Assembly (NCBI GenBank): GCA_009702045.1
Contig: WLIV01000003.1
Coordinates: 67,591-131,590, forward strand
Length of the DNA stretch: 64,000 nucleotides
Direction of reading: 5' to 3'
Source of the DNA: Actinomycetota bacterium
Lineage (GTDB): Bacteria; Actinomycetota; Acidimicrobiia; Acidimicrobiales; Ilumatobacteraceae
Below, piece after piece: positions 9,875 through 49,147 of this stretch. The position numbers were made by a program, and so were the translations under genes. Each line of letters begins with the position of its first letter. The first letter of the stretch is position 1. A model generated the notes under the pieces. That model saw nothing but the letters and a program-made list of their open reading frames with translations. It was not told the DNA's origin and searched no databases.

Positions 9875-10465
9875 TTACACGATCTCGAAGAATTCTTCCG
9901 GGTTGGCCTGTAACTGCTCGGCCAAGCGTCGTAGCGCCCGGTGCTGGTTCACGCGCACCCAGTTCGCAGAGCGGCCCATCACCTCAGCAACGTGGTTGAC
10001 GTCCAGCTCGGCGACCACCCGGAGCACCAGCACTTCGGCCTGTTCCGGTGGGAGCGACCGCGTGATGAAGTCGACCGCTTGCTGACCGGAGAAACCGTCG
10101 ATGACGGTGTCGGCAGGGTCGGCACCGCCAGCCAGCTCTGCGAAACGGTCGGTATCGGTGGGGTCGGTGGCCCGCCGGGCCCCAGTACGACGGTGATCTG
10201 CCAAGCGCCGTCGGGCGATGGAGAACACCCAGGCCCGGAAGTCGGCGAGTTCACCCACGAAGGTGCCGATGCCACGCGCCATCGCCAGCCAGACTTCGCT
10301 GCTGATGTCGTCGGCCGCACGCGGCTCGGTGCTGCGCAGGAAGCGCAGGACGCGCGGCTGCAGATCGCAGAACAGCACCTCCGCAGCCCAGGCCGCACCC
10401 TCTTGGGCGGCGGTGAGCACCTCAGGGAACGATGTCTCGTCAAGCGGAGTCGGCGGGTGCTGCAT
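9875..10465 (-). CDS. ECF-type RNA polymerase sigma-70 factor
   Basis: Region 2 (DISSEVWLAMARGIGTF...FRAWVFSIARRRLADHRR) and a region 4 HTH (EVLVLRVVAELDVNHVAEVMGRSANWVRVNQHRALRRL). Confidence 0.85.
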   Translation of the reverse strand: MQHPPTPLDETSFPEVLTAAQEGAAWAAEVLFCDLQPRVLRFLRSTEPRAADDISSEVWLAMARGIGTFVGELADFRAWVFSIARRRLADHRRTGARRATDPTDTDRFAELAGGADPADTVIDGFSGQQAVDFITRSLPPEQAEVLVLRVVAELDVNHVAEVMGRSANWVRVNQHRALRRLAEQLQANPEEFFEIV

Positions 10466-19464: not shown

Positions 19465-19540
19465 TGGTGGTCGAGACCGGCGTCGATCCGGTGACCCTAC
19501 GCTTTTCAGGCGTATGCTCTGCCGACTGAGCTACTCGACC
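19465..19540 (-). tRNA. tRNA-Phe (GAA), CCA encoded
   Basis: Reverse complement GGTCGAGTAGCTCAGTCGG...CTGAAAA...GGATCGA...CTCGACCACCA folds as a cloverleaf with anticodon GAA. Confidence 0.9.
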
Positions 19541-19614
19541 GGGGGTGCCGGCCATTCGCATGGCCTGCTGTTGGTTACCACTTGCGTAGCTTCCGTTCGG
19601 GTGGGTAACCCGAG

Positions 19615-19687
19615 CGGTCCCGACGGGGTTCGAACCCGCGACCTCCGGCTTGACAGGCCGGCGTGAACTCCACTTCACCACGGGACC
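19615..19687 (-). tRNA. tRNA-Asp (GTC)
   Basis: Reverse complement GGTCCCGTGGTGAAGTGG...CTGTCAA...GGTTCGAACCCC...CGGGACCG, anticodon GTC. Confidence 0.9.
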
Positions 19688-19714
19688 AGATGAAATCTGA
19701 TCTGCATTGCTGTC

Positions 19715-19807
19715 GGTCGAATCACTCGACCTGCTTCACTTTTCGGCCGATTTCTCGACTGAGTTCTTGGTCGATTTCTCGACCCTTCATCTGGCCGATT
19801 TCTCGAC
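19715..19807. repeat. Periodic 15-16-nt motif GGYCGA(A)TYTCTCGAC, four copies (three at an exact 24-nt period) in the tRNA-Glu/tRNA-Asp spacer
   Basis: Copies at 19715-19730 (degenerate), 19745-19759, 19769-19783 and 19793-19807. Confidence 0.8.
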
Positions 19808-19811
19808 CTTG

Positions 19812-19884
19812 CACCCCCAACGGGATTCGAACCCGTGCCGCCACCTTGAAAGGGTGGTGTCCTAGGCCACTAGACGATGGGGGC
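19812..19884 (-). tRNA. tRNA-Glu (TTC)
   Basis: Reverse complement GCCCCCATCGTCTAGTGG...CTTTCAA...GGTTCGAATCCCGT..., anticodon TTC. Confidence 0.85.
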
Positions 19885-22502: not shown

Positions 22503-23354
22503 ATGACGGACATCCAGCGTGTGGGCATTCTCGGGTCGGGCATCATGGGTTCGGGGTTGGCCGAAGTGGCCGCCCGCGCCGGGTACGACGTGGTCGTGAG
22601 GTCGCGGTCGTTGTCGGCGGCCAATGCGATGGTGGCCGCCATCGACAAGGGTTTCGCGAAGGCGATCGAGCGCGGCAAGTCCACCGAGGATGAGCGCGCT
22701 GCCGTCTTGGCGCGCATCACCGCCACCGATCACCTCGGCGCGCTGGCCGACTGCGACCTGGTCATCGAGTCGGTTGTGGAAGATCTGGCGATCAAGAAGG
22801 CGCTGTTCATCGAACTCGAGCAGATCGTGAAGCCGGGCGGCATCCTCGCCACGAACACCAGCACCTTGCCGGTGGTGGAGATGGCGATGGTCACACAGCG
22901 CCCCGACCGTGTGTGCGGTATCCACTTCTTCAACCCAGCCCCGATGATGAAGTTGGTGGAAGTGGTGCGCCCGATCACCGCCTCCGACGACACGATCGCC
23001 GCGGCGTTGGCGTTCGCCGCTCGCTGTGGCAAGGACGGCGTCGAAGTGAAGGACCGCGCCGGCTTCATCGTCAACGCGCTCCTGTTCCCGTACCTCAACA
23101 ACGCAGTGCGCATGCTGGAGCAGGGCACGGCGGCGATGGAGAGCATCGACACTGCGATGAAGGGTGGCTGCAACTTCCCGATGGGTCCGTTCGCGCTGCT
23201 CGATCTCGTTGGCCTCGACACTTCGCTGGCCATCCTCGATGCGCTCTACAACGAGTTCCGCGATCCGAACTACGCAGCCATGCCCACACTTCGCCGGATG
23301 GTCGCTGCCGGCCACCTCGGCCGCAAGTCCAAGCGCGGCTTCTACACCTACTGA
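22503..23354 (+). CDS. hbd: 3-hydroxybutyryl-CoA dehydrogenase
   Basis: Rossmann GILGSGIMGSGLA, NTSTLPV, HFFNPAPMMKLVE and GFIVNALLFPYLN motifs. Confidence 0.9.
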   Translation: MTDIQRVGILGSGIMGSGLAEVAARAGYDVVVRSRSLSAANAMVAAIDKGFAKAIERGKSTEDERAAVLARITATDHLGALADCDLVIESVVEDLAIKKALFIELEQIVKPGGILATNTSTLPVVEMAMVTQRPDRVCGIHFFNPAPMMKLVEVVRPITASDDTIAAALAFAARCGKDGVEVKDRAGFIVNALLFPYLNNAVRMLEQGTAAMESIDTAMKGGCNFPMGPFALLDLVGLDTSLAILDALYNEFRDPNYAAMPTLRRMVAAGHLGRKSKRGFYTY

Positions 23355-23367
23355 CCCCCGGCCGGTC

Positions 23368-23467
23368 GGGCGCGATTCGTGCCGCAGTGGGCGCGCTTCG
23401 CGCCGCTCCTGACATGGTTGCGCGCACGTGGGGGCTGGGCCGGTCAGATCCGGCACGAATCGCGCCC
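23368..23467. repeat. Inverted-repeat element: perfect 17-bp arms GGGCGCGATTCGTGCCG / CGGCACGAATCGCGCCC separated by 66 nt
   Basis: Arms at 23368-23384 and 23451-23467. The same arm sequences recur at 56158-56293. Confidence 0.8.
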
Positions 23468-23523
23468 AACGGATTTCGGGGTTGGGCGGGACACCCCGAG
23501 GGGTTAGCCTTTGACTTCCACTC

Positions 23524-23609
23524 GGGCGAGTGGCGAAATGGCAGACGCGCTGGCTTCAGGTGCCAGTATTCGAAAGGATGTGGGGGTTCAAGTCCCCCCT
23601 CGCCCACCA
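23524..23609 (+). tRNA. tRNA-Leu (CAG), long variable arm, CCA encoded
   Basis: GGGCGAGTGGCGAAATGG...CTGGC TTCAGGT GCCAG...GGGGGTTCAAGTCCCCC CTCGCCC A CCA. Confidence 0.9.
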
Positions 23610-23612
23610 CGA

Positions 23613-23638
23613 GGCCCCAGCTCACGCTGGGGCCTTTT
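23613..23638 (+). terminator. Rho-independent terminator after tRNA-Leu
   Basis: GGCCCCAGC tcac GCTGGGGCC followed by TTTT. Confidence 0.7.
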
Positions 23639-23680
23639 GCGTGTCGAGGGTCAGGCGCCGTCGTGACGCCGAGAACTCGA

Positions 23681-24487
23681 TCACTTGGCCAGCGAGCCGC
23701 CGTAGATCTGCCAGGCGAGCAGCGACTTCGCCGCGAGACTGAGCACGAGGTAGGTCTTCTCGCCGTAGGCGTAGTCGCGCCAGCGGCCGATCCCTCGGTA
23801 TTGCAGCCACTGGTTCAGCCCGAAGCTGAAGAAGAAGACCAGCTCGGCAATCACGATGCCGTACACAAAGCCGGGCACCTGAGGTGCGCCGATCACGTTG
23901 ACCCAGATCGCCACCCACGGCGCAACACCGGCGACCGTGCCGAACCAGAAGGGCATCATCGTCGTCGATGTGCGCCCGGGTGGGTTCATGCGCTCTTGCA
24001 GCCAGCCGAACAGGATCATGGCGACGTTCGCTCCGGCGATGGCGAGCACGGTGGTGATGTCGGTGATGCCGCTGTAGAACGCGATCAACACCACCATCAG
24101 CGTCGCGCTCAGCGAGTACTCCACCCATCGGAACCGGTTGATGCCCCGGCCCAGGTCACGCTCGTAGGTGCGGCGGGCGAAGGTGGCGGTGGCGAAGTGG
24201 TCGAACGCGGCCAGGAACAGGAACACCGCGATGGCCGGACCGATGGCGACGTCGAACAACCCCTCCGGTGTGGTCAACCTCGTCCCGGGAGGTCCTTGCG
24301 GGAACGTGGACGTCACGGTGATCGCGAAGTTGCCCGCCATCACGAGGATCAGCACGGCCTGCGCGGCGTGCAGCACGCTGAGGCCGAGGTTCCACACGCG
24401 TAGACCCGCGAGGCGCTCCGGTGTGACTCCGGAGGCCAGGGTCGACCCGCTCTGGGTGTTCTGGTCCTGTACCGACGGTTCGGTCAT
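23681..24487 (-). CDS. Heliorhodopsin (7-TM retinal protein, HeR family)
   Basis: Full-length similarity, from memory, to prototype HeR 48C12: NRFRWVEYSLSATLMVVLIA, AMILFGWLQE, PFWFGTVAGVAPW, VPGFVYGIVI and YLVLSLAAKSLLAWQIYGGSL (Schiff-base Lys in SLAAKS; Glu in RWVEYS). Confidence 0.92.
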   Translation of the reverse strand: MTEPSVQDQNTQSGSTLASGVTPERLAGLRVWNLGLSVLHAAQAVLILVMAGNFAITVTSTFPQGPPGTRLTTPEGLFDVAIGPAIAVFLFLAAFDHFATATFARRTYERDLGRGINRFRWVEYSLSATLMVVLIAFYSGITDITTVLAIAGANVAMILFGWLQERMNPPGRTSTTMMPFWFGTVAGVAPWVAIWVNVIGAPQVPGFVYGIVIAELVFFFSFGLNQWLQYRGIGRWRDYAYGEKTYLVLSLAAKSLLAWQIYGGSLAK

Positions 24488-26082
24488 GCGTAGCTCCCTT
24501 GTTCGCGGGCCGGGGCGGATGGTTGCAGATCAGTGGGTCGTTCGAACATGTCGCGGTCCGGCGTGTGGACGAACGAGTGCAGCCGCTCGCCATCAGCACA
24601 GATGCCGGCGAGGAGCCCGGGGAAGATCCATCGGTGGAACGGCGCGACCGCAACCCAATAGAGGCGGCCGAGCAGACCACGCGGGTGGAATCGTGCTGTC
24701 TGGGTGATGGTTGCGCCGGTGTCGTCGGCTTCCATCTGCCACTGCAGCCAAGCATCTCCCGGAAGGCGCATCTCGGCGCGCAGCCGAAGCAGGCTGCCCG
24801 GGACGAGCGCCTCCACGCGCCAGAAGTCGAGCGGATCCCCGACGGACAACCGACGCGAATGAATGCGGCCACGACGCATTCCAACTCCACCGATCAACGA
24901 GTCGAAGATCCCGCGCAGGCTCCACAGCCAGTCGCCCGTGTACCAACCGTGGCGACCACCGATCGAGCTGACCACCTGGAACAGCTCGGCCGGTGATGCC
25001 GCCACGTGCCGCTCACGTCGATCGAGGTTGACCGTGCCGCCGGACCAGGCCGGGTCGGTGGGCTGTGGCTCGGCCGGTGGGCGCCCACCCAGTTCAGCAT
25101 GCGCCCAGCTCGTCGGTACGTCGCCGCTGATCGACCGGCCCAACGCCAGTTTCACCGCCTCGCGATAGCCGAGCTGCTCGATGGGCATCGCGTCGGCTGC
25201 GGCAGCGCCGGTCACGATCACATCGTTGACGAGGCTCTGGATGAGCGGGCGGGCGAGCATCGGCGGGATCGGTGTGACAAGGCCGATCCATCGCGACGAC
25301 AGCCCGGGCGTGAGGAACGGCACCGGCACGACGAGTCGGCGTCGTAGGCCGGCCACCTCCGCGTACTGGGCCATCATCTGCCGATATGTGAGTACCTCCG
25401 GCCCGCCAACGTCTAGGACCTGGCCGGTGACCTCGGCGGTCAAAGACTCGACGAGGAAGTGCAACACGTCGCGAACCGCAACCGGCTGGCACTTCGTGTC
25501 GACCCAACGCGGTGTCACCATCGCCGGGAGGACCTCGACGAGATAGCGCAACATCTCGAAGCTCGCCGACCCCGAGCCGATGACGACGGCGGCCCGCAAT
25601 TCGACCACCGGCACCGAGCCCTTGGCGAGCTCCGCGCCCACCTCCTGGCGACTGGCCAGATGTTCGCTGAGGTTCCCCGACGAATGGTCGCCGAGCCCGC
25701 CCAGGTAGACGATGCGTTGCAGTGCCGCACTCTCGGCAGCGCGCCGGAAGTTCTCGGCGACGGCACGGTCGTGCTCGGCCCACTCGGCCGACGAGCCGAT
25801 CGAGTGCACCAGGTAGAACGCAGCGTCCACCCCGGTCATCGCCTCGCTGAGGTCACCCCCGACGTCACCCTGCACGATCTCGACGGATGTGCGCCATGGC
25901 GCGGACAGCACCTTCGCCGGTGTGCGCACCAGGCACCGCACCCGGTACCCGCGCTCGAGCAGCACTGTCACCAACCGGCCACCGACGTAGCCGCTGGCCC
26001 CCGTCACCAGCACCAGCGCTCCCGGCAGCACACCCGGCGACTCGGCCTTGTTCGCCTTCGTCATGATGTCATCGCTGGACAC
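24484..26082 (-). CDS. NAD(P)-binding Rossmann (atypical SDR/NmrA-like) domain fused to a DUF2867-like C-terminal domain
   Basis: VLVTGASGYVGGRLV Rossmann motif at the N-terminus. The C-terminal half has WYTGDWLWSLRGIFDSLIGGVGMRRGR, typical of DUF2867 as I recall it. Its stop overlaps the heliorhodopsin start (ATGA). Confidence 0.75.
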   Translation of the reverse strand: MSSDDIMTKANKAESPGVLPGALVLVTGASGYVGGRLVTVLLERGYRVRCLVRTPAKVLSAPWRTSVEIVQGDVGGDLSEAMTGVDAAFYLVHSIGSSAEWAEHDRAVAENFRRAAESAALQRIVYLGGLGDHSSGNLSEHLASRQEVGAELAKGSVPVVELRAAVVIGSGSASFEMLRYLVEVLPAMVTPRWVDTKCQPVAVRDVLHFLVESLTAEVTGQVLDVGGPEVLTYRQMMAQYAEVAGLRRRLVVPVPFLTPGLSSRWIGLVTPIPPMLARPLIQSLVNDVIVTGAAAADAMPIEQLGYREAVKLALGRSISGDVPTSWAHAELGGRPPAEPQPTDPAWSGGTVNLDRRERHVAASPAELFQVVSSIGGRHGWYTGDWLWSLRGIFDSLIGGVGMRRGRIHSRRLSVGDPLDFWRVEALVPGSLLRLRAEMRLPGDAWLQWQMEADDTGATITQTARFHPRGLLGRLYWVAVAPFHRWIFPGLLAGICADGERLHSFVHTPDRDMFERPTDLQPSAPAREQGSYA

Positions 26083-26152
26083 GTCAAAATTCGCACGGTT
26101 AGAGCCAACTGTCAGCGCAACTGGCGTATTCCCCGGATGAAGTCGGCGCTGG

Positions 26153-27121
26153 TCAGGCCTTCGGGTGCGCCAGCAAGAACTCGACCATGGCCACGATCAT
26201 CGGGTGGCTTCCGTCGGGGAAGTTCACCGACGGAATGTGCGGGCCACCCGTCACGGTGAGCAACTGCACGTCGACGCCGGCCGGGCAACCCGCATACGCG
26301 GTCAACTGTGATTCGGAACCGTCGACAGTGGGCTCCAGGTCGAGCGCCGACCCTGATGCGGCGATGGCACCGGCGCAGCCGTCGTACGTCGCCCACGTAG
26401 CGACACTCTGCTCAGCACCGGGGTAGCTGACGCCGATACCTTCGGTGGCGCCACCGGCGTACGCGATTGTTCCGTCGGCGGTGCCGTGCACTTGCAACAC
26501 GCTGACCGGCTCCGACGGGTTGCACTTGGCTGCGTCGAGGAACGTGGCGCCAGCCAGGCTGGCGATCGCGGCGACCCGGCCACTCAACTCGCAGGCCATG
26601 CGGTACGACATGAAACCGCCGTTCGAGTGACCCATGAAGTAGATGCGCTTGGGGTCGACGTCGTACTGCGCGCTGACCGAATCGAGGATGCCCGTGAGAT
26701 AGGCGACATCGTCGACCGTGGTCTGGTACCCGCAGCACGCATCGGTGGCATTCCAGAATGCCTTCCCGAGCGAGTTCGTGGTGCCGGTGGGATGCACGTA
26801 GAGAAAGCCTTCGCTCTCCGCCAACGCTTGCACGCCGAAGTACGCCTCTTGAATCGGGCCAGTGGCGCCGTAGCCGTGCAGCAGCACCACGAGCGGCATT
26901 GCCGTGCCCTTGGTGTACGAGGAGGGTACGAACACGTCGAACGGGCGTGTCGGGTCGGGCACCACCGGGCTGGTGTCCACCACCGGAGTGGTGTCGGGGG
27001 CGACGGTGTCGGGGGCGACGATTGTCGTGGTGGGTGCCGTGGCGGCGGTGTCAGCACCTGAGGAGGTGCTGCAGCCGGCAGCGAAGGTGAAAGCGACCGC
27101 GAGGAGAAGAGCCTTGTGCAT
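26153..27121 (-). CDS. Secreted esterase, PHB-depolymerase (LpqC-like) family lipoprotein
   Basis: Lipobox AAGC-S, LLHGYG and the nucleophile elbow GHSNGG. Family-typical FWNATDACCG. Confidence 0.8.
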   Translation of the reverse strand: MHKALLLAVAFTFAAGCSTSSGADTAATAPTTTIVAPDTVAPDTTPVVDTSPVVPDPTRPFDVFVPSSYTKGTAMPLVVLLHGYGATGPIQEAYFGVQALAESEGFLYVHPTGTTNSLGKAFWNATDACCGYQTTVDDVAYLTGILDSVSAQYDVDPKRIYFMGHSNGGFMSYRMACELSGRVAAIASLAGATFLDAAKCNPSEPVSVLQVHGTADGTIAYAGGATEGIGVSYPGAEQSVATWATYDGCAGAIAASGSALDLEPTVDGSESQLTAYAGCPAGVDVQLLTVTGGPHIPSVNFPDGSHPMIVAMVEFLLAHPKA

Positions 27122-27225
27122 CAGGGCAAGGTAGCGGCATCTGACCCAGGTTGTGGTGCTGGCAGCCCGCAGGCAGAGCGTGGAGACCAGGACCGGACTG
27201 GTGGGCGCCGGTGCCGGGCGCCTAG

Positions 27226-28551
27226 TTAGGCGTTCTTGGGTAGATCGCGGAACGCAGTCACCTTGTCGCTGTTCGGTTCCTTCGGCAGACCGAGCACGCG
27301 CTCGCCGATGATGTTGCGCTGCACCTGGTCGGTGCCGCCGTAGATCGAGGGGCTGGGCGACACGAGTGCTGCCTCGGTGACCTGTCGGTTGAACGGGGTG
27401 CCGGTGGCGGCATCGAGCGCTTCAGCCTGTTCTGCGGTGTATGCGTGCAGCATTCCGGTGGCGCCGAGGATCCGCAGCGAGATCTCGCGGCTGAGGCGAG
27501 CCATCGCCGACATGGAGAGCTTGGCGATGTTGCCGATACCGGGCACATCGTTGCGCCCGGTGACCGCTGCGGCCTTGGCGCGCAGGCTGCCGTACCGGCC
27601 GATCTCGTCCATCGAGTACAGGCGGGTGATGTCCTGGCGCAGGATCGGGTCGTCGCCGAGTCCGTACTCGCGGGCGAGCCGGGACAGGATCGTCGCCGAC
27701 GCACCCGTCAGCGACATTGCGTTGGTCGCTGAAGCAGTGACGCCCACGAAGTCGCCGGCGCGGCGAGCGAGGTCGCCGAACACTGTGCCTGGGACGGCCG
27801 CCGAGAGTGCCGAGTGCCCACCGCCGGCACCGAGGCTGCTGCGCTCGAAGCCGAGCGTTGCATTGGCCACGGCCCAGCCACCGTTGAGTTCGCCGATCAG
27901 CGAGTCGTGGTTGACGCGCGCTTCGGTGAGGAACACCTCGTTGAACACAGCGTGGCCGGTCATCTCGCGCAATGGGCGAATGTCGACCACGTCGCGCTGG
28001 TGCATGGGGAATGCGAAGTAGCTGATGCCCTGGTGCTTGGGCACATCGGCGTCGGTGCGCGCGAGCAGCATGCCCATGTCGGCCACCTGACCGCCCGAGG
28101 TCCACACTTTCTGACCAGTGACGATCCACTCCTCACCGTCGCGCTCGGCCTTGGTCTGCAGCCCGGCGAGATCGCTGCCCGCACCGGGTTCGCTGAACAA
28201 CTGACACCACGCCTGCTGGCCGGTGACGATCGGGCGCACGAAGCGGTCGATCTGCGCCTGCGTGCCATAGGTGGCAATGGTGGGAGCGGCGAGCATCAGT
28301 CCCAATCCGCCCGGTGCGGGCAACGCACCGTGTTCGGCGATGGCGCGCTCGACGCGGACGGCGTCGTTGCGGGTGAGACCTCGTCCGTACGCATTGGCGG
28401 GCAGGATCGGCGACGACCACCCAGCCGAACCCAACCGCTCCCACCAGTCGCCGACAGTGAGGTCGGGGTTCCAGTTGTCCGCCAACCAGGTGCGAACTTC
28501 ATCGACCGGGTCGACACCGGTTCGGGACGCGGTGCTGCTCTGCTCGCTCAT
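27226..28551 (-). CDS. Acyl-CoA dehydrogenase family protein
   Basis: Three-domain ACAD layout (WCQLFSEPGAGSDLAG, TGQKVWTSG, C-terminal IYGGTDQVQRNIIGERVL). Start taken at MSEQSS. Confidence 0.85.
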   Translation of the reverse strand: MSEQSSTASRTGVDPVDEVRTWLADNWNPDLTVGDWWERLGSAGWSSPILPANAYGRGLTRNDAVRVERAIAEHGALPAPGGLGLMLAAPTIATYGTQAQIDRFVRPIVTGQQAWCQLFSEPGAGSDLAGLQTKAERDGEEWIVTGQKVWTSGGQVADMGMLLARTDADVPKHQGISYFAFPMHQRDVVDIRPLREMTGHAVFNEVFLTEARVNHDSLIGELNGGWAVANATLGFERSSLGAGGGHSALSAAVPGTVFGDLARRAGDFVGVTASATNAMSLTGASATILSRLAREYGLGDDPILRQDITRLYSMDEIGRYGSLRAKAAAVTGRNDVPGIGNIAKLSMSAMARLSREISLRILGATGMLHAYTAEQAEALDAATGTPFNRQVTEAALVSPSPSIYGGTDQVQRNIIGERVLGLPKEPNSDKVTAFRDLPKNA

Positions 28552-28567
28552 GAGACAGAGTGTGCCA

Positions 28568-29386
28568 TTACTTGGCGATCGGCTCCGAAGTGGACACCCA
28601 GACATCGACCGTCGCTGATGCGGATGCCTCAACATGTGCGTCGGCGACTCGGGCACCCGACTGCCAGCGAATGGGAGTCATCAGGAACAGATCGCGTGCG
28701 TCGCCGTCGGAGAGTTCGAGTGTGAACTCGACGTGCACGGCACTGCTGGCCTCGGGGGGCGGTTCACTGCGGCGGGCGAGCCGTTCTGCGGTCTTCAGCG
28801 CCGACTCGCCCTGCGGGACGGGTCGCATCTCTTGCAGGTGCCGTGGTCCGGGTGTGGCCGTCACCCACCGGCCGCCTGGTCGCAGCACACGGGCGAACTC
28901 GTCGAACGGGTGCGGAGCGAACACCGAGATCACCGCGCCCACCGAATGGTCGAGCACCGGCAGGCGGTACGCAGTGCCCACGACGTACTGGGTGTCGGGG
29001 TGTGCTCGGGCGGCCATTTGCACGGCGGCCTTGGACACGTCGAGTCCGAATCGTTCGCCGGGCGCGGCCTGCTCGTGACTCAGTTGCGCGAGGTACCAAC
29101 CCTCACCGCAGCCGACGTCGAGGACCGGACCGGGGGGTATGCCGACCGCCTCGGCCAGAGCACGGGCGATGGGTGCGTAGTGGCCCGCTGTCAGGAAGCG
29201 CCGGCGTGCCGCGAGCGCATCGGGGGTGTCGCCAGAGGTGACCGTGGGGCTGAGGCGCCCGCCGACCAGTAGGTGCAGGTACCCACCGCGGCCGCGGTCG
29301 AACGAGTGGCCGTTCGCGCACGTTGCACCGGCGTCGGTGAGGTCGAGCGCACGCGAGCAGTGCGGGCAGGCGAGCACTTGGTTCAC
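28568..29386 (-). CDS. SAM-dependent methyltransferase, RlmA (23S rRNA m1G)-like with N-terminal zinc ribbon
   Basis: CPHC...CANGH zinc site and VLDVGCGEGWY SAM motif. The GTG start at 29386 overlaps the upstream stop (GTGA). Confidence 0.7.
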   Translation of the reverse strand: MNQVLACPHCSRALDLTDAGATCANGHSFDRGRGGYLHLLVGGRLSPTVTSGDTPDALAARRRFLTAGHYAPIARALAEAVGIPPGPVLDVGCGEGWYLAQLSHEQAAPGERFGLDVSKAAVQMAARAHPDTQYVVGTAYRLPVLDHSVGAVISVFAPHPFDEFARVLRPGGRWVTATPGPRHLQEMRPVPQGESALKTAERLARRSEPPPEASSAVHVEFTLELSDGDARDLFLMTPIRWQSGARVADAHVEASASATVDVWVSTSEPIAK

Positions 29387-30378
29387 GGCTGCACGCCGGC
29401 CGCGTGCTCGCACCATTCCCATAGCTCGAGGCGACGCTCGGGTGTGTCGGTACGTCGCGTGCCGGGCACCTTGTGCAGCCCGCGGCGGGCCCGGTCGAGC
29501 CAGAACCCGCCGCTGGTGTGCAGCGGTTCACCGTCGTCGGCTGCGAGCCACACGAGCGTGTCGGCACCTTGTTCGGGGCTGCGCAGCAGTGGACCCATCA
29601 CCTTGGCGAACATCGGCAGCGACGCGGCGACGCCGGGTGTGTCGGCCCAGCCAGGGTGCATTGCGTGGAACACCACGTCAGTGGGGTCGATGTGCTGTGC
29701 CCACATCTCGTTCAGCGTCACCTGCGCCCGCTTGGCGCGGGCGTATTGCTCAGTGCCCTTGTAGTCGTCGCCCATCTCCAACTGCTGCACCGTCAGCCCG
29801 GTGGCGTACATGCCGCCCGACGACATCGTGAGCACGCGACCTGGCGCAGCGACTCGCAGGATGGGGAGCAACAGGGTGGTCAGCAGGAACGGCCCGACCA
29901 CTTGGCTGGCCACCGTGAGCTCGATGCCCCCCGGCGCAGTTCGGCGATCGGTGGTGAGAGCGCCGGCGTTGTGGATCAGCACGTCGAGACGCGGGTGGCG
30001 GGACAGCACCTCCGCAGCCCCGCCGCGCACCGCGTCGAGGTCGCCCATGTCGGCGACCACTGACTCGACGTGTTCGTTGCCGCTGGCCATCGCGATGCCC
30101 TGGCGTACACGTTCGGTCTTGTCCGGGTCGCGGCCCCACAGGATGACGGTGGCGCCGCAGCGGGCCAGTGTCTCCGCAGCCGAGCGCCCGAGGCCCGACG
30201 TCGCTCCGGTGATCAGCACACTTCGACCGGTGAGGTCGTAGTCGGCCAACGGCGTCCAATGATCGATACGCGAGCGCACGTCGTAACCGAGTCGCGTAAA
30301 ACTTGTCACCACTGGTGCTTCGAGCACCTTGTCGACCACCCGTTTCCACTGCACCATCGCATCAGTCTGGCCCGCCAC
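29383..30378 (-). CDS. Short-chain dehydrogenase/reductase (SDR)
   Basis: ITGATSGLGRS (TGxxxGxG), NNAG-like HNAG, and catalytic YARAK (YxxxK). Confidence 0.85.
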   Translation of the reverse strand: MAGQTDAMVQWKRVVDKVLEAPVVTSFTRLGYDVRSRIDHWTPLADYDLTGRSVLITGATSGLGRSAAETLARCGATVILWGRDPDKTERVRQGIAMASGNEHVESVVADMGDLDAVRGGAAEVLSRHPRLDVLIHNAGALTTDRRTAPGGIELTVASQVVGPFLLTTLLLPILRVAAPGRVLTMSSGGMYATGLTVQQLEMGDDYKGTEQYARAKRAQVTLNEMWAQHIDPTDVVFHAMHPGWADTPGVAASLPMFAKVMGPLLRSPEQGADTLVWLAADDGEPLHTSGGFWLDRARRGLHKVPGTRRTDTPERRLELWEWCEHAAGVQP

Positions 30379-35465: not shown

Positions 35466-37511
35466 CTATGTCAGATCGTCGGTCTGCCAGATCGGCAACG
35501 GCGACACACTTTGCGCGTAGCGCTCGGCCGTGCGCATTACCAGGAAGTGCTCGAACTCGGCGGCGGGCAGGGCGGGTGCGTACAGGTGGCCTTGTTGGCG
35601 CACACAGCCGAGCGCGATCAGCGAGTCGGCTTGGATACCAGTCTCTACACCGTCGGCCGTGACGGCGATACCGATCTCGCGTACGAGGGCGATGATCGAG
35701 CGAACGATCGCCCGGTCGTGTGGGTGAGCGTTGAGGCTGTCGATCGACAGCTGGTCGATGCGCACCTCATCGAGCGGAAGGCGGCGCAGCAGGTTCAGGG
35801 ATGACACGCCGTGGGCGAAATCGTCGAGGCATACCCGACCACCACGTGCGCGAAAGGCCGCAAGGTTGGCGGCGGCTGCGGGCAGGTCGCCGGTCACCGC
35901 ACTCTCCATCACATCGATGGTGATCATCGAGGGCTCGAGACCGTGCAGCATGCGATCGATCGGATCGTCTCGCCGACCGCGCTCGGTGGCCTCCGGGGCC
36001 ATGTTGACTCGGAAGCGGAACCCATCGGGCAGGCCGAGCATCGACAGGCGGCGCATGTGTGGCCGGGCGCTGAGCAGCACCTTCTCGGTGATGCGCTCGA
36101 GCAGGCTGGCTGACATCGCGACCTCGAGGAAGTCCTGCGCCGCAATCACCCGGCCGTCGCGCCGCACCCAGCGGGCCAACAGTTCGGCACCGACGACGTG
36201 GCCGTTGCTGGCATCGATCTCGGGTTGGAAGAAGGCGACGATTTCGCCGTCATCGATCGCTCGCCGCAGCGCCTGCTCACCTTCGAGGCGGTCAATCATC
36301 TCCTGCTGCATGGTCCCGTCGAACATCTCGACGCGGTTGCGGCCGCCAGCCTTGGCTCGGTACAGCGCAGCGTTGGCGTTGCGCAGCAGTTCGCTGGCTG
36401 CATTGCCGTGCAGCGGCGCGGCGGCAACTCCGACGCTGACCGACGAGGGCATCTCGCGACCCTCGGCGTACACCGGCTGGGCCAGCACGCTGACGAGCCG
36501 CTCGGCAACGGCGCGCGCTCCAGCCATGTCGAGGCCGGGCATGACCACCACGAACTCGTCGCCGCCCATGCGGCCGACGATCGAAGTGGCGTCGCTACTG
36601 TGCTGCAGACGGTCGGCAATGATGGTGATGAAGCGGTCGCCACCTCGGTGGCCGAGCGCGTCGTTGACGGCCTTGAAGCGGTCGAGGTCGCAGAACAACA
36701 AGCCGACCGGATGCTGCTCGTCGGCACCCGCCAGGAGTGCGTCCAGCAACTCGAGCGTGCCGCGCCGGTTGTACAGCCCGGTGAGCGGATCGTGCGTGGC
36801 TTGGTGGGCGAGGTGGATGTTGATCCCGGCCAGCTGCTCATTGACGACGGTCAGCTCGCCCCGCTCATGATCGAGTTCGCGCAGGAGGCGGTCGCTGCGC
36901 CATTGCAGCCGGATGCCGTCGACGCTGTTGCGGCTGAGCACATGGTGCAGGACGACGAGCGCGACTCCGAACAGTGCACTGAGGTAGCCGAGGCTGTGGA
37001 GGTAGTCCTCGCCGGCTGAGAGCAGCGACCACGACGTCCAGGTGAGCATTGGCACAGTCATTGCCAGGAAGAGGTCGCGACGGCCGGAAGTGACGATGCA
37101 TGCGACGGCCGCCGCTGTTGCCGGGAACAGCGTGAACAGCAGCACCACCTCGACTGGGGCGCCGTCGGCAACCCAGGTCGACATACCGAACACCACACCA
37201 ATCGAGGCGAACGACACGCCGATCATCAGTTGGTTGAACACCGAGGTGGAGTTGGTGACCGAGAGCATGTAGTAGCGGTAGAGCGCGAACAACGTGATGG
37301 CTGTGCATGCGACCGCTGCCAGGAGCCACCACCCGAGGTGTACCGACGACACGTCCTTGTGCATCATCGTGCTCACCAACAGTGTGAACGGCAGGACTAC
37401 GAACGGGGCGGGTGCCAGGTTGGCAGTGACCATCGCGAGGGCTCGTTCGCGGACGAACGCAGCGGGGGTCCGCTCGGTGAGGTCTGCGCCCTGCTCGCTC
37501 TCCTCCGTCAC
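35466..37511 (-). CDS. Membrane-bound GGDEF/EAL (diguanylate cyclase/phosphodiesterase) signalling protein
   Basis: Multi-TM N-terminus, GGDEF (RMGGDEFVVV), and an EAL domain (FFQPEID, AELLARW, DDFAHG, QGHLY). Confidence 0.85.
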   Translation of the reverse strand: MTEESEQGADLTERTPAAFVRERALAMVTANLAPAPFVVLPFTLLVSTMMHKDVSSVHLGWWLLAAVACTAITLFALYRYYMLSVTNSTSVFNQLMIGVSFASIGVVFGMSTWVADGAPVEVVLLFTLFPATAAAVACIVTSGRRDLFLAMTVPMLTWTSWSLLSAGEDYLHSLGYLSALFGVALVVLHHVLSRNSVDGIRLQWRSDRLLRELDHERGELTVVNEQLAGINIHLAHQATHDPLTGLYNRRGTLELLDALLAGADEQHPVGLLFCDLDRFKAVNDALGHRGGDRFITIIADRLQHSSDATSIVGRMGGDEFVVVMPGLDMAGARAVAERLVSVLAQPVYAEGREMPSSVSVGVAAAPLHGNAASELLRNANAALYRAKAGGRNRVEMFDGTMQQEMIDRLEGEQALRRAIDDGEIVAFFQPEIDASNGHVVGAELLARWVRRDGRVIAAQDFLEVAMSASLLERITEKVLLSARPHMRRLSMLGLPDGFRFRVNMAPEATERGRRDDPIDRMLHGLEPSMITIDVMESAVTGDLPAAAANLAAFRARGGRVCLDDFAHGVSSLNLLRRLPLDEVRIDQLSIDSLNAHPHDRAIVRSIIALVREIGIAVTADGVETGIQADSLIALGCVRQQGHLYAPALPAAEFEHFLVMRTAERYAQSVSPLPIWQTDDLT

Positions 37512-42998: not shown

Positions 42999-43397
42999 TC
43001 AGATGACCTCGATCGTGCATCGACTGCCCGGGGCGTTGGCCAGGCGGCGGTCAGCGGTGACGAGCGTGCACTCGAGCGTCTCCGCCAGCGTGACGTAGGA
43101 CGCGTCGTAGACGGTGAGGTTGCCGCGCAACGACCAGATGCGACGGAGCAGCGATTCAACGGGGAACACGACGAGCGGGAGGTCGAGCAAGTCATCGATC
43201 GCTCGTTCTGCTTGCGGCTGACTCAGCAGCCCTGCCGCCGTCTGGCGGCGAAGCACGGACAGGACCTCCAGACGCAGAAGGTCCGGCCCGGCCAGTTGCT
43301 CACCGCGGAGTCGTGCGCGGAAACGCTCGCCGTCCGCCCCGCTGTCGCCAACGGCCGGCGCGAGAACTGACGCGTCAACGACCAGCACGCTCAGCAT
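42999..43397 (-). CDS. vapC: PIN-domain toxin
   Basis: VVDASVL (first acidic residue), LEV, VYDASYVTLAE and TADRRL motifs. Overlaps the upstream antitoxin gene. Confidence 0.8.
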   Translation of the reverse strand: MLSVLVVDASVLAPAVGDSGADGERFRARLRGEQLAGPDLLRLEVLSVLRRQTAAGLLSQPQAERAIDDLLDLPLVVFPVESLLRRIWSLRGNLTVYDASYVTLAETLECTLVTADRRLANAPGSRCTIEVI

Positions 43398-43605
43398 CCA
43401 AGGCCGCGAGCGCGTCGGCGGCGGGAAGGCGCCCCTTCGTTCTGCGCTCGATTCGGTCGAGGACGTCGTCCAGCGATGGCGTGGTGGCGATCAGCGTCAG
43501 CTGGGTCGCCAGGTACTGCTGCAGCGACTGGCCGGCGAGATGGGCGCGCCGGACCAGTTCCTCATGGATGTCGTCGGGGACGTCTCGAACCTGAACGTTC
43601 GGCAT
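43375..43605 (-). CDS. vapB: Ribbon-helix-helix (FitA/Arc-like) antitoxin
   Basis: MPNVQVRDVPDDIHEELVRRAHLAGQSLQQYL is a typical RHH antitoxin N-terminus. 23-nt overlap with vapC. Confidence 0.75.
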   Translation of the reverse strand: MPNVQVRDVPDDIHEELVRRAHLAGQSLQQYLATQLTLIATTPSLDDVLDRIERRTKGRLPAADALAALDAERAGR

Positions 43606-43629
43606 GCATGCAGAATACATGCATGCCGA
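43599..43629. promoter_or_regulatory. Perfect 12-bp inverted repeat (TCGGCATGCATG n7 CATGCATGCCGA) overlapping the vapB start codon; probable autoregulatory operator
   Basis: Read directly. Arms at 43599-43610 and 43618-43629. The vapB ATG is at 43605-43603. Confidence 0.5.
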
Positions 43630-43653
43630 ACAGGCCACAAGGGCTGAACCCGG

Positions 43654-45225
43654 TCAGGCCGGCTTGGGGGTACCGGCGCGACGGACGCGCAGGTGGTGAT
43701 CGGCGGCATTGCGGCACGTGCCGGTGCCGAGGTCGAAGCGCCAGCCGTGCAGCGTGCACACGAAGTCGTCACCGTCGATCTCGCCGAACACTTTCAGGTC
43801 GGCCTGACGGTGCGGGCAGGTGCGCTCGATGATCCAGCCGTCGAGTTCGAACTCTTCTTCGGCGAGCCCATCGCGGTCGGGGTCGTGCTTGCGCAGCGCC
43901 TCGGCCTCGGCTCGCACCATGCGCTCCTCGTCGAGCGACTTGAAGAAGTTGTAGAGGTACTCGTTGTACTGACCCTTGCGCCAGGCACTGAAGCGACACG
44001 AGAGAAACAGCGCGTTGCTCCAGTCGTTGGCGCGATCGGCCACCACGTTCTCGACCAGCTCGCGTTGCACGCGGAAGCGGAAGTCGTGATCTTCGCCCTT
44101 CCATTCGCGCACCTCGCGATTGGGGAAGTCGATCGCGATCGCCAAATCGCCGGCGTGGAACACGCAGATCGCGCCGATCGAGTTGCACAGCGTGGGGGCC
44201 ATGCGCATGAGCGGCTCCCACCAGTCCTTCAGCGTCTGCAGCAGGTTCGGCGTGGCGGGCAGCCACTTCGACTTCATCTCGGCCAGCCAGGGCATGTAGT
44301 CGGCCTGGTAGTTGCGCAGGTACTGCTCTTTGTCGTCGAAGATTGCCTGCACCTCGGCCTCGGGCATCGGGTGCGTCACCGTGAGCTCGCCGCTGGTGCC
44401 GAACTCGATCTCGGTGCCGGGGATAGCCAGCAGACCGAGTCGACCGTCGGCCTGGAGGCGGGCCATGAACGCGCGCTGGTCGGGGAAGATGCTGAGCTCG
44501 TCGCCGGTGATGATGTTGACGCTGAACAGGTCGGGGTCGAGGAACGCCGGTGGTCCGGCGCTGGGCACCACGGCACGCGAGTCGATGGCCTTGACGTAGT
44601 GCATCGCGCGCGTGAACTGCGCGTCCACCTTCGCATCGACCAACTCGCGCATCTTCTCCGGCGTCTCCTCGTAGACGATCGGGTACCAGATCGCGCCGCT
44701 GTACTGCAGCCAGTGCAAGTCCACCTGACCATGCGCGGCCAAGGTTTCGAGATGGCTGGTACGACAGTCGTTCTGGTTCACCAGCCGGGCCGTGCCGTCG
44801 CTGATGACCAGCGCGCTGTCGCCACCCGGGCCGTCGGTGATGCTGACCTCGCAGTGGATCGTGACACGCAGGTTCGGGCCGAGCGCCATCTCCTCACGGT
44901 CGACCGTGCGGAGGATGTTGTTGAACCCGAGACCGCGCAGGATGCGCTCGAGTTCTCGGGTGGGGTAGCCCGGGATGAGCACCTTGGTGTTCTTGTTCAT
45001 GTTCGCGACCAGCCACTCGGGATCGAGATGATCCGCGTGAATGTGCGAGATGTACAAGTAGTCCGGGTTGCAGATCCTGTGCATCAGTTCGGCGGAGAGT
45101 TGATCGTTCCTGGGGAAGACGAACCAGCTACCGAAGAACTGCGGAAGGAACCAAGGGTCGCAGCAGATCGACCCATCGACGGTGTCGACGAGGATCCCTG
45201 CGTGGCCGATCGAGGTGGCACGCAT
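43654..45225 (-). CDS. Metallo-beta-lactamase-fold domain fused to a C-terminal Rieske [2Fe-2S] domain
   Basis: N-terminal HIHADHLD (HxHxDH). C-terminal CPHRQADL...CTLHGWRF (CxH...CxxH). Confidence 0.8.
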   Translation of the reverse strand: MRATSIGHAGILVDTVDGSICCDPWFLPQFFGSWFVFPRNDQLSAELMHRICNPDYLYISHIHADHLDPEWLVANMNKNTKVLIPGYPTRELERILRGLGFNNILRTVDREEMALGPNLRVTIHCEVSITDGPGGDSALVISDGTARLVNQNDCRTSHLETLAAHGQVDLHWLQYSGAIWYPIVYEETPEKMRELVDAKVDAQFTRAMHYVKAIDSRAVVPSAGPPAFLDPDLFSVNIITGDELSIFPDQRAFMARLQADGRLGLLAIPGTEIEFGTSGELTVTHPMPEAEVQAIFDDKEQYLRNYQADYMPWLAEMKSKWLPATPNLLQTLKDWWEPLMRMAPTLCNSIGAICVFHAGDLAIAIDFPNREVREWKGEDHDFRFRVQRELVENVVADRANDWSNALFLSCRFSAWRKGQYNEYLYNFFKSLDEERMVRAEAEALRKHDPDRDGLAEEEFELDGWIIERTCPHRQADLKVFGEIDGDDFVCTLHGWRFDLGTGTCRNAADHHLRVRRAGTPKPA

Positions 45226-49106: not shown

Positions 49107-49147
49107 CCTGCCAGCACGGAATGCCGATCGTGCGGCACAATGGGGGA

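What the first reader, a model, noticed from the sequence alone, without database searches (positions are those of the whole stretch)
23681..26082. Heliorhodopsin translationally coupled to an NAD(P)-binding/DUF2867-like fusion protein
The 268-aa ORF is a heliorhodopsin: RWVEYSLS, ILFGWLQE, PFWFG, VPGFVYG and SLAAKSLLAWQI with the Schiff-base Lys. Its ATG overlaps the stop of the upstream 532-aa gene (ATGA at 24484-24487), so the two are almost certainly co-transcribed and co-translated. Heliorhodopsins have inverted topology, do not pump ions, and their physiological outputs are only partly understood. A fixed enzymatic partner in the same operon is therefore a concrete candidate for a light-regulated effector. 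The partner has a Rossmann NAD(P) domain plus a hydrophobic-pocket DUF2867-like domain. No crt/blh retinal-biosynthesis genes are present in the 64 kb. A DegV lipid-binding protein and several lipid/acyl-CoA genes lie within 5 kb.
Basis: partly seen in the sequence, partly recalled or inferred. Interest (0 to 1): 0.8.

Follow-up and report, generated by a model that had tools for sequence, protein, structure and literature searches.

The report
Heliorhodopsin in a lineage-specific stress operon
A genuine light-sensing heliorhodopsin gene overlaps by four bases a gene for an uncharacterised NAD(P)-binding, lipid-pocket protein (YbjT family) behind an oxidative-stress-type promoter. The pairing is confined to one small clade of freshwater actinobacteria, so it is a good but local lead rather than a general heliorhodopsin effector.

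Summary
A 268-aa heliorhodopsin (HeR; 23681-24487, minus strand) starts inside the stop codon of a 532-aa gene (24484-26082) that encodes an NAD(P)-binding Rossmann domain plus DUF2867.

- The partner belongs to the YbjT family of atypical SDRs. It has HxxxR where the catalytic YxxxK would sit, an NDUFA9/NmrA-like fold, and a C-terminal SRPBCC pocket. It is not evidently an enzyme.
- In 80 species-level actinobacterial HeR loci, a YbjT-like gene lies next to HeR only in one small Ilumatobacteraceae clade, plus one odd locus with reversed gene order.
- Within that clade the pair, its ATGA junction and its Shine-Dalgarno site persist while the flanking genes change.
- Several close relatives have nevertheless lost HeR. 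One has lost YbjT and left a remnant.
- YbjT homologues at 78% identity or less never carry HeR.

New here is a sigmaH/sigmaR-type promoter (GGAATA-N17-GTT, 26107-26132) conserved upstream of the YbjT gene in five distinct loci. A DPRP photolyase-like gene is also a recurrent neighbour. The best reading is a lineage-specific photo-oxidative-stress operon.

HeR-SDR operons are already catalogued (Kim et al. 2024). No crt or blh genes were found among about 51 predicted genes scanned.

The parts
26107..26132 (-). Predicted sigmaH/sigmaR-type (ECF) promoter, GGAATA-N17-GTT. The -35 element GGAAT is at 26132-26128 and the -10 element GTT is at 26109-26107. It lies in the 70-bp gap between the alpha/beta-hydrolase gene and the YbjT-like gene.
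   Evidence: Read and matched. The same motif occurs 50-175 nt upstream of the orthologous gene in L005/L006, L007, L009, L015 and L095. The surrounding intergenic sequence does not align between them. The background rate is 0.024 per kb per strand. The consensus follows the C. glutamicum SigH study, PMC10012870. In silico only.
24484..26082 (-). YbjT-family gene: an atypical-SDR NAD(P)-binding domain (residues ~20-325), a disordered linker (326-350), a DUF2867/SRPBCC helix-grip domain (352-506) and a low-complexity tail (507-532). The probable true start is the ATG at 26064.
   Evidence: Pfam. JGI name 'uncharacterized protein YbjT (DUF2867 family)'. TGASGYVG motif. H141 and R145 are invariant in 50 homologues. 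AF2 model with pLDDT 81.6. Foldseek matches to NDUFA9, NmrA and HSCARG. C-domain matches to SRPBCC folds.
24494..24498 (-). Shine-Dalgarno sequence GGGAG for HeR. It lies inside the last codons of the YbjT-like gene, 6 nt before the ATG.
   Evidence: A GGAG, GAGAG or GGGAG sequence sits at the same place in 8 related loci.
24484..24487 (-). ATGA start/stop overlap between the YbjT-like gene and HeR.
   Evidence: It is conserved in L005/6, L008, L009, L015, L017, L019 and L020. L007 has a 16-bp overlap instead.
23681..24487 (-). Heliorhodopsin gene (268 aa). Schiff-base Lys is K254, counterion is E123, and the conserved histidines are H40 and H97.
23597..23650 (.). G+C-rich inverted repeat between the convergent tRNA-Leu and HeR genes. 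It is the likely shared terminator and the point where synteny with the closest relative ends.
   Evidence: L015 carries the same hairpin flanked by A and T runs. Homology between the window and L015 stops at 23616.
23524..23609 (+). tRNA-Leu(CAG), convergent with HeR. It marks the downstream boundary of the unit.

Best explanation
The locus is a two-gene transcription unit: YbjT-like gene, then heliorhodopsin. It is read from a sigmaH/sigmaR-type ECF promoter.

The unit arose once, in the ancestor of a small clade of freshwater Ilumatobacteraceae (Acidimicrobiia). Most descendants keep it as the only conserved block in an otherwise scrambled neighbourhood. Either gene has since been lost from it several times.

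Shown here:
- the identity of both genes;
- the 4-bp overlap with its own Shine-Dalgarno site;
- conservation of the junction;
- the conserved promoter motif;
- the clade-limited distribution;
- recurrent linkage of the YbjT gene to a DPRP photolyase-like gene.

Inferred:
- Thiol-oxidative or photo-oxidative stress releases the sigmaH-like factor and induces both proteins together.
- The YbjT-like protein is a peripheral NAD(P)(H)- and hydrophobic-ligand-binding protein. It acts as a redox or lipid sensor or carrier, not as a classical dehydrogenase.
- HeR supplies the light input to this response. It does so either by contacting the partner through its cytoplasmic loops, as shown for HeR with glutamine synthetase, photolyase and an ABC transporter, or simply by being co-expressed with it.
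For: Gene identities.

Overlap and SD conserved in 8 distinct loci.

HeR tree: all HeRs with an upstream YbjT gene form one clade.

YbjT tree: the HeR-linked state is confined to the clade at 81% identity or more.

Flanking genes differ between pair-bearing loci, so the pair is the conserved unit.

SigmaH-type promoter in five distinct loci, including the HeR-less L095, against a background of 0.024 per kb. It matches the published GGAAT(G/A)-N17-GTT consensus.

Stress- or light-related neighbours in relatives:
- DPRP photolyase-like gene in L006, L007, L016, L095, L096 and as a remnant in L017;
- katG in L019.

Published precedents for HeR regulating operon partners: PMC9529153, PMC9769723, PMC11109279.

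Published inference that HeRs are linked to oxidative-stress genes: PMC8612252.
Against: - There are no transcript data. The promoter is a motif match only, and within the window alone it is not significant (3 matches against 1.5 expected).
- Four in-clade YbjT genes have no HeR, and one in-clade HeR has lost YbjT. Neither gene strictly needs the other in cis.
- A 4-bp overlap leaves no intergenic space for a rearrangement breakpoint. Persistence of the pair may therefore be partly mechanical.
- No test of physical interaction was possible.
- The sigmaH-type motif belongs to the YbjT gene, not to HeR in general. Only 2 of 78 other HeR loci have it.
Confidence: 0.55

Rival explanations
1. The YbjT-like protein is a dedicated, physically bound effector whose activity HeR switches with light. 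The translational coupling would ensure stoichiometric assembly.
For: Tight, conserved ATGA junction. The pair is retained while its flanks change. A second, independent juxtaposition with a different HeR lineage and reversed gene order exists in L023. HeR-partner binding is documented for three other operon partners.
Against: The partner lacks the SDR catalytic Tyr and Lys, having HxxxR instead, so there may be no enzymatic activity to switch. HeR or YbjT was lost from the pair in at least 5 close relatives. The closest relatives of the L023 HeR, at 95% and 88% identity, lack YbjT. HeR has its own SD, so coupling is not required. The association is absent from about 70 other HeR species.
Confidence: 0.25
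2. Neutral hitch-hiking. HeR was inserted behind a stress-induced housekeeping gene and borrows its promoter. The adjacency persists by descent and because overlapping genes are hard to separate. There is no functional link between the two proteins.
For: HeR neighbourhoods are extremely promiscuous: 276 neighbours fall into 238 clusters, and the same-strand neighbours have unrelated Pfam content. The distribution is limited to one clade. There are repeated losses. HeR-linked YbjT genes carry an extra 25-28 aa low-complexity tail that looks like translated former intergenic DNA. The HeR-less L011 copy ends at the domain border.
Against: The pair outlasts every other neighbour across loci that have diverged to 81-89% protein identity. 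There is a second, independent juxtaposition in L023. Light-related DPRP genes recur at the locus.
Confidence: 0.25
3. Chromophore supply. The SRPBCC pocket of the partner binds a retinoid or carotenoid, and the Rossmann domain interconverts retinol and retinal or delivers retinal to apo-HeR. This would compensate for missing blh/crt genes.
For: No retinal-synthesis genes were found among about 51 genes scanned in the 64-kb window. The C-domain has a Bet v1/START/PYR-PYL-type hydrophobic pocket. PYR/PYL proteins bind the apocarotenoid abscisic acid (my own knowledge). HeRs have been proposed to use exogenous carotenoids (bioRxiv 10.1101/2025.11.27.691015).
Against: The catalytic YxxxK is absent. 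The YbjT family is widespread in organisms without rhodopsins: 8000 or more homologues were found, and E. coli YbjT is a member. Most HeR genomes do not place it next to HeR. 64 kb says little about the rest of the genome.
Confidence: 0.08

Closest known systems
[quoted passage not shown] 2024, Nat Commun, PMC11109279)
   Same: HeR and an SDR-superfamily gene lie on the same strand with a -4 overlap and are predicted to be co-transcribed. They were proposed as a candidate HeR-modulated pair.
   Different: The published members are mainly from Rhodococcus, plus Nocardioides, a Chloroflexi isolate and Thermococcus. Most have HeR upstream of the SDR, and they are annotated as ordinary SDRs. No Ilumatobacteraceae member and no SDR+DUF2867 (YbjT-type) partner is listed. 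The one DUF2867 entry, in an Anaerolineales genome, is separated from helR by a DUF2177 gene. I did not compare the sequences of those SDRs with this partner.
Experimentally shown HeR-partner systems: AbHeR-glutamine synthetase (PMC9529153), TfHeR-photolyase (PMC9769723), OcHeR-OmrDE ABC transporter (PMC11109279)
   Same: A HeR is encoded in one operon with a cytoplasmic or membrane protein that it could bind and modulate in light.
   Different: The partner family here is different and has no known activity. No binding or activity data exist. Here the photolyase-like gene (DPRP/FeS-BCP type) is a divergent neighbour in relatives. It is not the operon partner, and it is absent from this window.
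E. coli YbjT / atypical SDR subgroup with HxxxR (CDD 'SDR_a2', recalled from memory) plus DUF2867 (PF11066)
   Same: Same two-domain architecture. TGxxGxxG is present and HxxxR replaces YxxxK.
   Different: The family has no characterised member, and the literature search found nothing functional. Linkage to HeR, to a sigmaH-type promoter and to DPRP is specific to this actinobacterial clade.
NDUFA9 (39-kDa subunit of complex I) and the NmrA/HSCARG NAD(P)H sensors
   Same: These are the best sequence and fold matches of the N-terminal domain. They are non-catalytic or regulatory NAD(P)(H)-binding Rossmann proteins. NDUFA9 sits at a membrane interface.
   Different: Identity is only 16-22%. None of them has a C-terminal SRPBCC domain. 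There is no evidence that this protein joins a respiratory complex.
SigH (Corynebacterium, Mycobacterium) / SigR (Streptomyces) thiol-oxidative stress regulon
   Same: The promoter matches GGAAT(A/G)-N17-GTT exactly, as at mshC, trxB1, mca and uvrD3.
   Different: The regulon has not been studied in Acidimicrobiia. No sigH-rshA pair lies in the window; the only ECF sigma there is ShbA/BldN-like. Neither HeR nor YbjT is a known regulon member in the papers I could search.

Membership tests
Heliorhodopsin (PF18761 / NF038020) | Full-length match to the family model above the curated cutoff | tested here: met
   Pfam E 6e-97, model positions 1-242 of 242. NCBIfam equivalog 270 bits against a cutoff of 100. 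Solved HeR 48C12, E 4e-66.
Heliorhodopsin (PF18761 / NF038020) | Schiff-base lysine in TM7, glutamate counterion in TM3 and the two conserved histidines | tested here: met
   K254, E123, H40 and H97 align with K241, E107, H23 and H80 of 48C12. K254, H40 and H97 are invariant in alignment A2 and E123 is conserved in at least 90% of its sequences.
Heliorhodopsin (PF18761 / NF038020) | Inverted topology (N-terminus in the cytoplasm), retinal binding and a slow photocycle without ion pumping | not testable with these tools
   Requires expression and spectroscopy.
YbjT-type atypical SDR + DUF2867 | Glycine-rich TGxxGxxG NAD(P)-binding motif | tested here: met
   T27-G28-A-S-G31-Y-V-G34. G28, G31 and G34 are invariant in 50 homologues and T27 is conserved in at least 90% of them.
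YbjT-type atypical SDR + DUF2867 | HxxxR in place of the SDR catalytic YxxxK (subgroup definition recalled from CDD) | tested here: met
   H141-L-A-S-R145 aligns with Y-A-A-S-K of 9g83_P. H141 and R145 are invariant.
YbjT-type atypical SDR + DUF2867 | C-terminal DUF2867 domain with an SRPBCC helix-grip fold | tested here: met
   PF11066, E 3e-36, model positions 1-141 of 142. Model with pLDDT 83 showing a beta sheet plus a long C-terminal helix. Foldseek hits to CoxG, START, Bet v1 and PYR/PYL with probability 1.0 and TM 0.4-0.6.
Catalytic classical or extended SDR dehydrogenase/epimerase | Catalytic Tyr and Lys (YxxxK) | tested here: not met
   Replaced by HxxxR. Matches to epimerase and reductase equivalog models are far below their cutoffs.
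HeR-partner regulatory pair (as for GS, photolyase and the ABC transporter) | Partner gene on the same strand in one operon with HeR | tested here: met
   4-bp overlap, conserved in 8 loci.
HeR-partner regulatory pair (as for GS, photolyase and the ABC transporter) | Direct binding and light-dependent change of partner activity | not testable with these tools
   No multimer prediction or experiment was available.
HeR-partner regulatory pair (as for GS, photolyase and the ABC transporter) | Association conserved beyond close relatives | tested here: not met
   Adjacency is found only in the clade with HeR at 81% identity or more, plus the single locus L023. About 70 other species lack it. YbjT homologues at 78% identity or less lack HeR.
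SigH/SigR regulon member | GGAAT-N17-19-GTT promoter upstream | tested here: met
   Window 26107-26132. The orthologous position carries it in 4 further distinct loci.
SigH/SigR regulon member | SigH-dependent, stress-induced transcription | not testable with these tools
   Needs transcript mapping or in vitro transcription.

The most novel reading that the evidence does not exclude
In this Ilumatobacteraceae clade, HeR is the light input of a sigmaH-controlled photo-oxidative-stress module. It binds and gates the YbjT-family protein, an NAD(P)H- and lipid/apocarotenoid-binding sensor. This would give the first function both for the widespread YbjT/DUF2867 family and for a redox-linked HeR output. 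The neighbouring DPRP photolyase-like gene would belong to the same light-response island.
Probability: 0.2. Interest if true: 0.7.

Novelty: new member of a known kind. Interest (0 to 1): 0.45.

Why it matters
The physiological outputs of heliorhodopsins are known for only three partners. The YbjT/DUF2867 family, which includes a protein in E. coli, has no known function.

This locus offers a concrete pair that can be expressed. It also offers something the earlier surveys did not report: a predicted regulatory handle. That handle is a sigmaH/sigmaR-type promoter, together with recurrent linkage to a photolyase-like gene. It ties a HeR to the thiol-oxidative and light-stress response, and it can be tested with simple transcript and binding assays.

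The negative result matters as well. The partner is clade-specific and dispensable in cis. It should therefore not be generalised to 'the' HeR effector.

Tried and rejected
1. Broad HeR alignment (49 sequences, A1) for the genome scan. I redid the scan with 14 closer sequences (A2).
2. Metagenome scan with the partner. It returned only 10 loci.
3. Sigma-70 promoter and intrinsic-terminator scan of 23300-27400. Nothing was found.
4. Rfam scan of the whole window. Only the five tRNAs were found.
5. Genomic island at tRNA-Leu. There is no second copy of the tRNA 3' end and no integrase, so this was rejected. The breakpoint with L015 lies in the terminator hairpin.
6. The ECF sigma gene in the window (9875-10465) as the cognate sigmaH. 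It is ShbA/BldN-like, and no zinc-binding anti-sigma factor lies next to it, so this was rejected.
7. Reproducibility of the reversed HeR-then-YbjT order of L023. The closest HeR relatives lack YbjT, so L023 stands alone and could be a chimera.
8. Literature on DUF2867 or YbjT in relation to light or SigH. Nothing useful was found.
9. DegV and lipid genes as conserved context. They are not found in any related locus.
10. A general sigmaH-type promoter in front of HeRs. Only L040 and L060 have one.
Full report
**1. Observation**

On the minus strand a 532-aa ORF (24484-26082) is followed by a 268-aa ORF (23681-24487). The plus strand reads tcat at 24484-24487. The TGA stop of the first gene and the ATG of the second therefore overlap as ATGA. 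A GGGAG Shine-Dalgarno sequence lies 6 nt upstream of that ATG, at 24494-24498.

The 268-aa protein is a heliorhodopsin.
- Pfam PF18761, E 6e-97, over the whole model.
- NCBIfam HeR equivalog, 270 bits against a cutoff of 100.
- E 4e-66 to the solved HeR 48C12. K254, E123, H40 and H97 align with its Schiff-base K241, counterion E107, H23 and H80.

The 532-aa protein has NAD_binding_10 and NmrA matches at residues 23-138 and a DUF2867 match at residues 346-489, E 3e-36.

Database names and close homologues place the organism in freshwater Ilumatobacteraceae / Acidimicrobiia.

**2. What the partner is**

JGI names its homologues 'uncharacterized protein YbjT (DUF2867 family)'.

It has the TGxxGxxG motif (TGASGYVG). 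Where SDRs carry the catalytic YxxxK it has H141-L-A-S-R145. This is seen in the alignment to chain 9g83_P, and both residues are invariant in 50 homologues. From memory, this is the defining trait of the atypical SDR subgroup that contains E. coli YbjT.

An AlphaFold2 model (pLDDT 81.6) shows three parts:
- a Rossmann domain;
- a disordered linker at residues 326-350;
- a helix-grip domain.

Foldseek matches the N-terminal domain best to the NDUFA9 39-kDa subunit of complex I and to NmrA and HSCARG. A separate model of the C-terminal domain (pLDDT 83) matches SRPBCC proteins: CoxG, START, Bet v 1, PYR/PYL and norcoclaurine synthase. TM-scores are 0.4-0.6.

The partner is therefore better described as an NAD(P)(H)- and hydrophobic-ligand-binding protein of unknown function than as an enzyme. 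I found no functional literature on DUF2867.

**3. Is the partner fixed to HeR? The partner-centred view**

YbjT homologues at 78, 72, 71 and 63% identity, on contigs of 53 kb to 1.8 Mb, have no HeR nearby.

Among homologues at 83-89% identity from a metagenome scan:
- five have HeR immediately downstream (L005-L009; L005 and L006 are the same sequence);
- two do not (L010, L011).

Two further close homologues, at 89% and 84% identity on contigs of 184 and 809 kb, also lack HeR.

**4. The HeR-centred view**

A scan of one genome per GTDB species returned 80 actinobacterial HeR loci at 61-99% identity. A YbjT-like gene is adjacent in only a few of them:
- L015, the same species as the window;
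- L017;
- L019, where the YbjT gene carries a frameshift;
- L020;
- L023, where the gene order is reversed.

Everywhere else the neighbours are unrelated. The 276 flanking genes fall into 238 clusters. Close same-strand neighbours include Lhr helicase, NhaA, SMR, P450, thiolase, amidase, LysE, a HAD hydrolase and a PAS-GAF-SpoIIE protein, among others. This agrees with the published picture of HeR 'promiscuity' (PMC8612252).

**5. Inside the clade**

In a HeR tree, all HeRs with an upstream YbjT gene form one clade. In a YbjT tree, the HeR-linked state is confined to the clade at 81% identity or more, with HeR-less members nested inside it.

The junction is conserved. ATGA occurs in seven distinct loci and a 16-bp overlap in L007. 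A GGAG-type Shine-Dalgarno sequence sits 6-8 nt upstream in each.

The flanking genes differ from locus to locus, so the pair is the only conserved block.

L016 has a HeR 91% identical to the window's but no YbjT gene. It retains a 34-codon remnant of the YbjT tail that still abuts the HeR start. That is a secondary deletion.

HeR-less YbjT genes either stop at the domain border (L011) or have a different tail (L095). The 25-28 aa low-complexity tail that carries the HeR ribosome-binding site exists only in linked copies.

L023 joins a HeR from a different HeR clade to the same YbjT orthologue group, in reversed order with a 14-nt gap. The closest relatives of that HeR, at 95% and 88% identity, lack YbjT. 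L023 is therefore a single, unconfirmed second juxtaposition.

**6. New regulatory evidence**

Upstream of the YbjT gene the window carries GGAATA-N17-GTT at 26132-26107, in the 70-bp gap after the preceding hydrolase gene.

The same GGAAT(G/A)-N17-18-GTT(G) motif lies 50-175 nt upstream of the orthologous gene in L005/6, L007, L009, L015 and the HeR-less L095. The surrounding intergenic DNA is otherwise unalignable between these loci. The background rate is 0.024 per kb per strand, so five distinct hits are far above chance.

The motif equals the experimentally defined SigH-specific consensus of Corynebacterium glutamicum (GGAATG/A-N17-GTT; PMC10012870). The same paper treats SigR of Streptomyces as the equivalent regulator. 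Within the window alone the motif count is not significant. The evidence lies in the conservation across loci.

Only 2 of 78 other HeR loci (L040, L060) carry such a motif before HeR. The promoter therefore belongs to the YbjT gene, and HeR was recruited behind it.

**7. Recurrent neighbours**

A DPRP gene (PF04244), a deoxyribodipyrimidine photolyase-related protein, recurs at the locus:
- divergently upstream of YbjT in L006, L007 and L095;
- degraded in L017;
- near HeR in L016;
- convergent with YbjT in L096.

L019 has katG upstream.

A 331-aa classical SDR (window 29383-30378) recurs near YbjT in L002, L008 and L096. In L002 it forms part of a cluster of amine oxidase, DUF1365 and cyclopropane-fatty-acid-synthase-like genes.

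These associations point to a light and oxidative-stress context for YbjT, independent of HeR. The window itself has no DPRP gene.

**8.

No carotenoid or blh family was detected among about 51 of the 62 predicted genes. This is consistent with the claim but not informative about the rest of the genome.

DegV, 3-hydroxyacyl-CoA dehydrogenase and the other genes downstream of HeR are not found in any related locus. The 97%-identical relative L015 loses synteny exactly at the hairpin between HeR and tRNA-Leu. The 'lipid neighbourhood' is therefore not conserved context.

DegV does occur next to helR in two unrelated genomes in a published table. I regard this as a weak lead only.

**9. Comparison with what is known**

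HeRs that bind and modulate operon partners are established for three partners:
- glutamine synthetase (PMC9529153);
- photolyase (PMC9769723);
- an ABC transporter (PMC11109279).

The last paper sorted HeR operons into ten groups. [quoted passage not shown] Other groups include photolyase, MerR and alpha/beta hydrolase. Its supplement lists one Anaerolineales locus with a DUF2867 gene two genes away from helR.

No paper in the library mentions heliorhodopsin together with DUF2867.

The present pair is thus a new member of an already catalogued kind. It has a distinct partner family (YbjT type) and a predicted sigmaH-type control that has not been reported.

**10. Verdict**

- Co-transcription is very likely.
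- 'Fixed enzymatic partner' is not supported.
- 'Candidate light-regulated partner' remains possible, at roughly one chance in four or five.
- A clade-specific stress operon, with or without physical coupling between the proteins, is the best-supported reading.

Interest is moderate.

Noticed in passing
L006 303-1820, L007 382-1908, L016 2126-3655, L095 3277-4821, L096 6564-8091, L017 ~1935-2480: A DPRP (PF04244) photolyase-related gene is a recurrent neighbour of the YbjT-like gene in the clade, with or without HeR. It is frameshifted in L096 and fragmentary in L017. The window has none.
   Followed up: partly
L016 4899-5003: A 34-codon mini-ORF ends in TGATG at the HeR start. It is a remnant of the YbjT C-terminal tail. 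YbjT was deleted there and HeR was kept.
   Followed up: yes
L023 2242-4541: Reversed order: HeR, a 14-nt gap, then the YbjT-like gene. The HeR comes from a different HeR clade. The contig is only 5.1 kb, and close HeR relatives (L097-L100) lack YbjT. It may be a second independent juxtaposition or an assembly chimera.
   Followed up: partly
window 23609-23650 versus L015 5840-5880: The closest relative (97% nucleotide identity over window 23616-29481) loses synteny exactly at the terminator hairpin between HeR and tRNA-Leu. L015 has a clean A-run/stem/T-run bidirectional terminator there. No att-like repeat or integrase was found.
   Followed up: partly
L005 36-53, L006 2563-2580, L008 3438-3455, L095 4910-4927: An 18-nt AT-rich element, TAGTGMTAAATSYAACGG, lies just downstream of the sigmaH-type -10 element in three distinct loci and nowhere else in about 1 Mb of fetched DNA. 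It may be a leader or operator. It is absent from the window.
   Followed up: partly
L040 and L060, 41-53 nt upstream of HeR: Two marine Acidimicrobiaceae HeRs have a conserved GGAATR-N17-GTT motif directly upstream of HeR itself.
   Followed up: no
L099 2861-3661, L100 643-1416: A MerR-type HTH plus B12-binding regulator (LitR/CarH-like light-responsive type) lies next to HeR in relatives of the L023 HeR.
   Followed up: no
window 29383-30378; L002 5009-5995; L008 1757-2731; L096 8783-9763: A 331-aa classical SDR (PRK06197-like) recurs near the YbjT-like gene. In L002 it sits with amine oxidase, DUF1365 and cyclopropane-fatty-acid-synthase-like genes. From my own knowledge, that cluster type is associated with singlet-oxygen responses in proteobacteria.
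   Followed up: partly
L019 1100-3320 and 3410-4998: A katG-like peroxidase lies directly upstream of the pair. The YbjT gene in that MAG is split by a frameshift, which is either a pseudogene or an assembly error.
   Followed up: no
L008 ~3460-3680, L017 ~3100-3400, L016 ~4560-4900: A small ORF of about 85-100 aa, apparently hydrophobic, precedes and overlaps the YbjT start on the same strand in several relatives. L095 has a 21-codon remnant. It is absent from the window.
   Followed up: no
window 49121-51301: A DsbB-like gene is followed by two Redoxin/AhpC-TSA genes. This is a thiol-redox cluster elsewhere in the window.
   Followed up: no
window 35466-37511; 43654-45225; 42999-43638; 19465-19884: A GGDEF-EAL protein, an Rv3818-like SCP2-Rieske protein, a PIN-domain toxin with a small upstream ORF, and a cluster of tRNA-Phe, tRNA-Asp and tRNA-Glu.
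   Followed up: no
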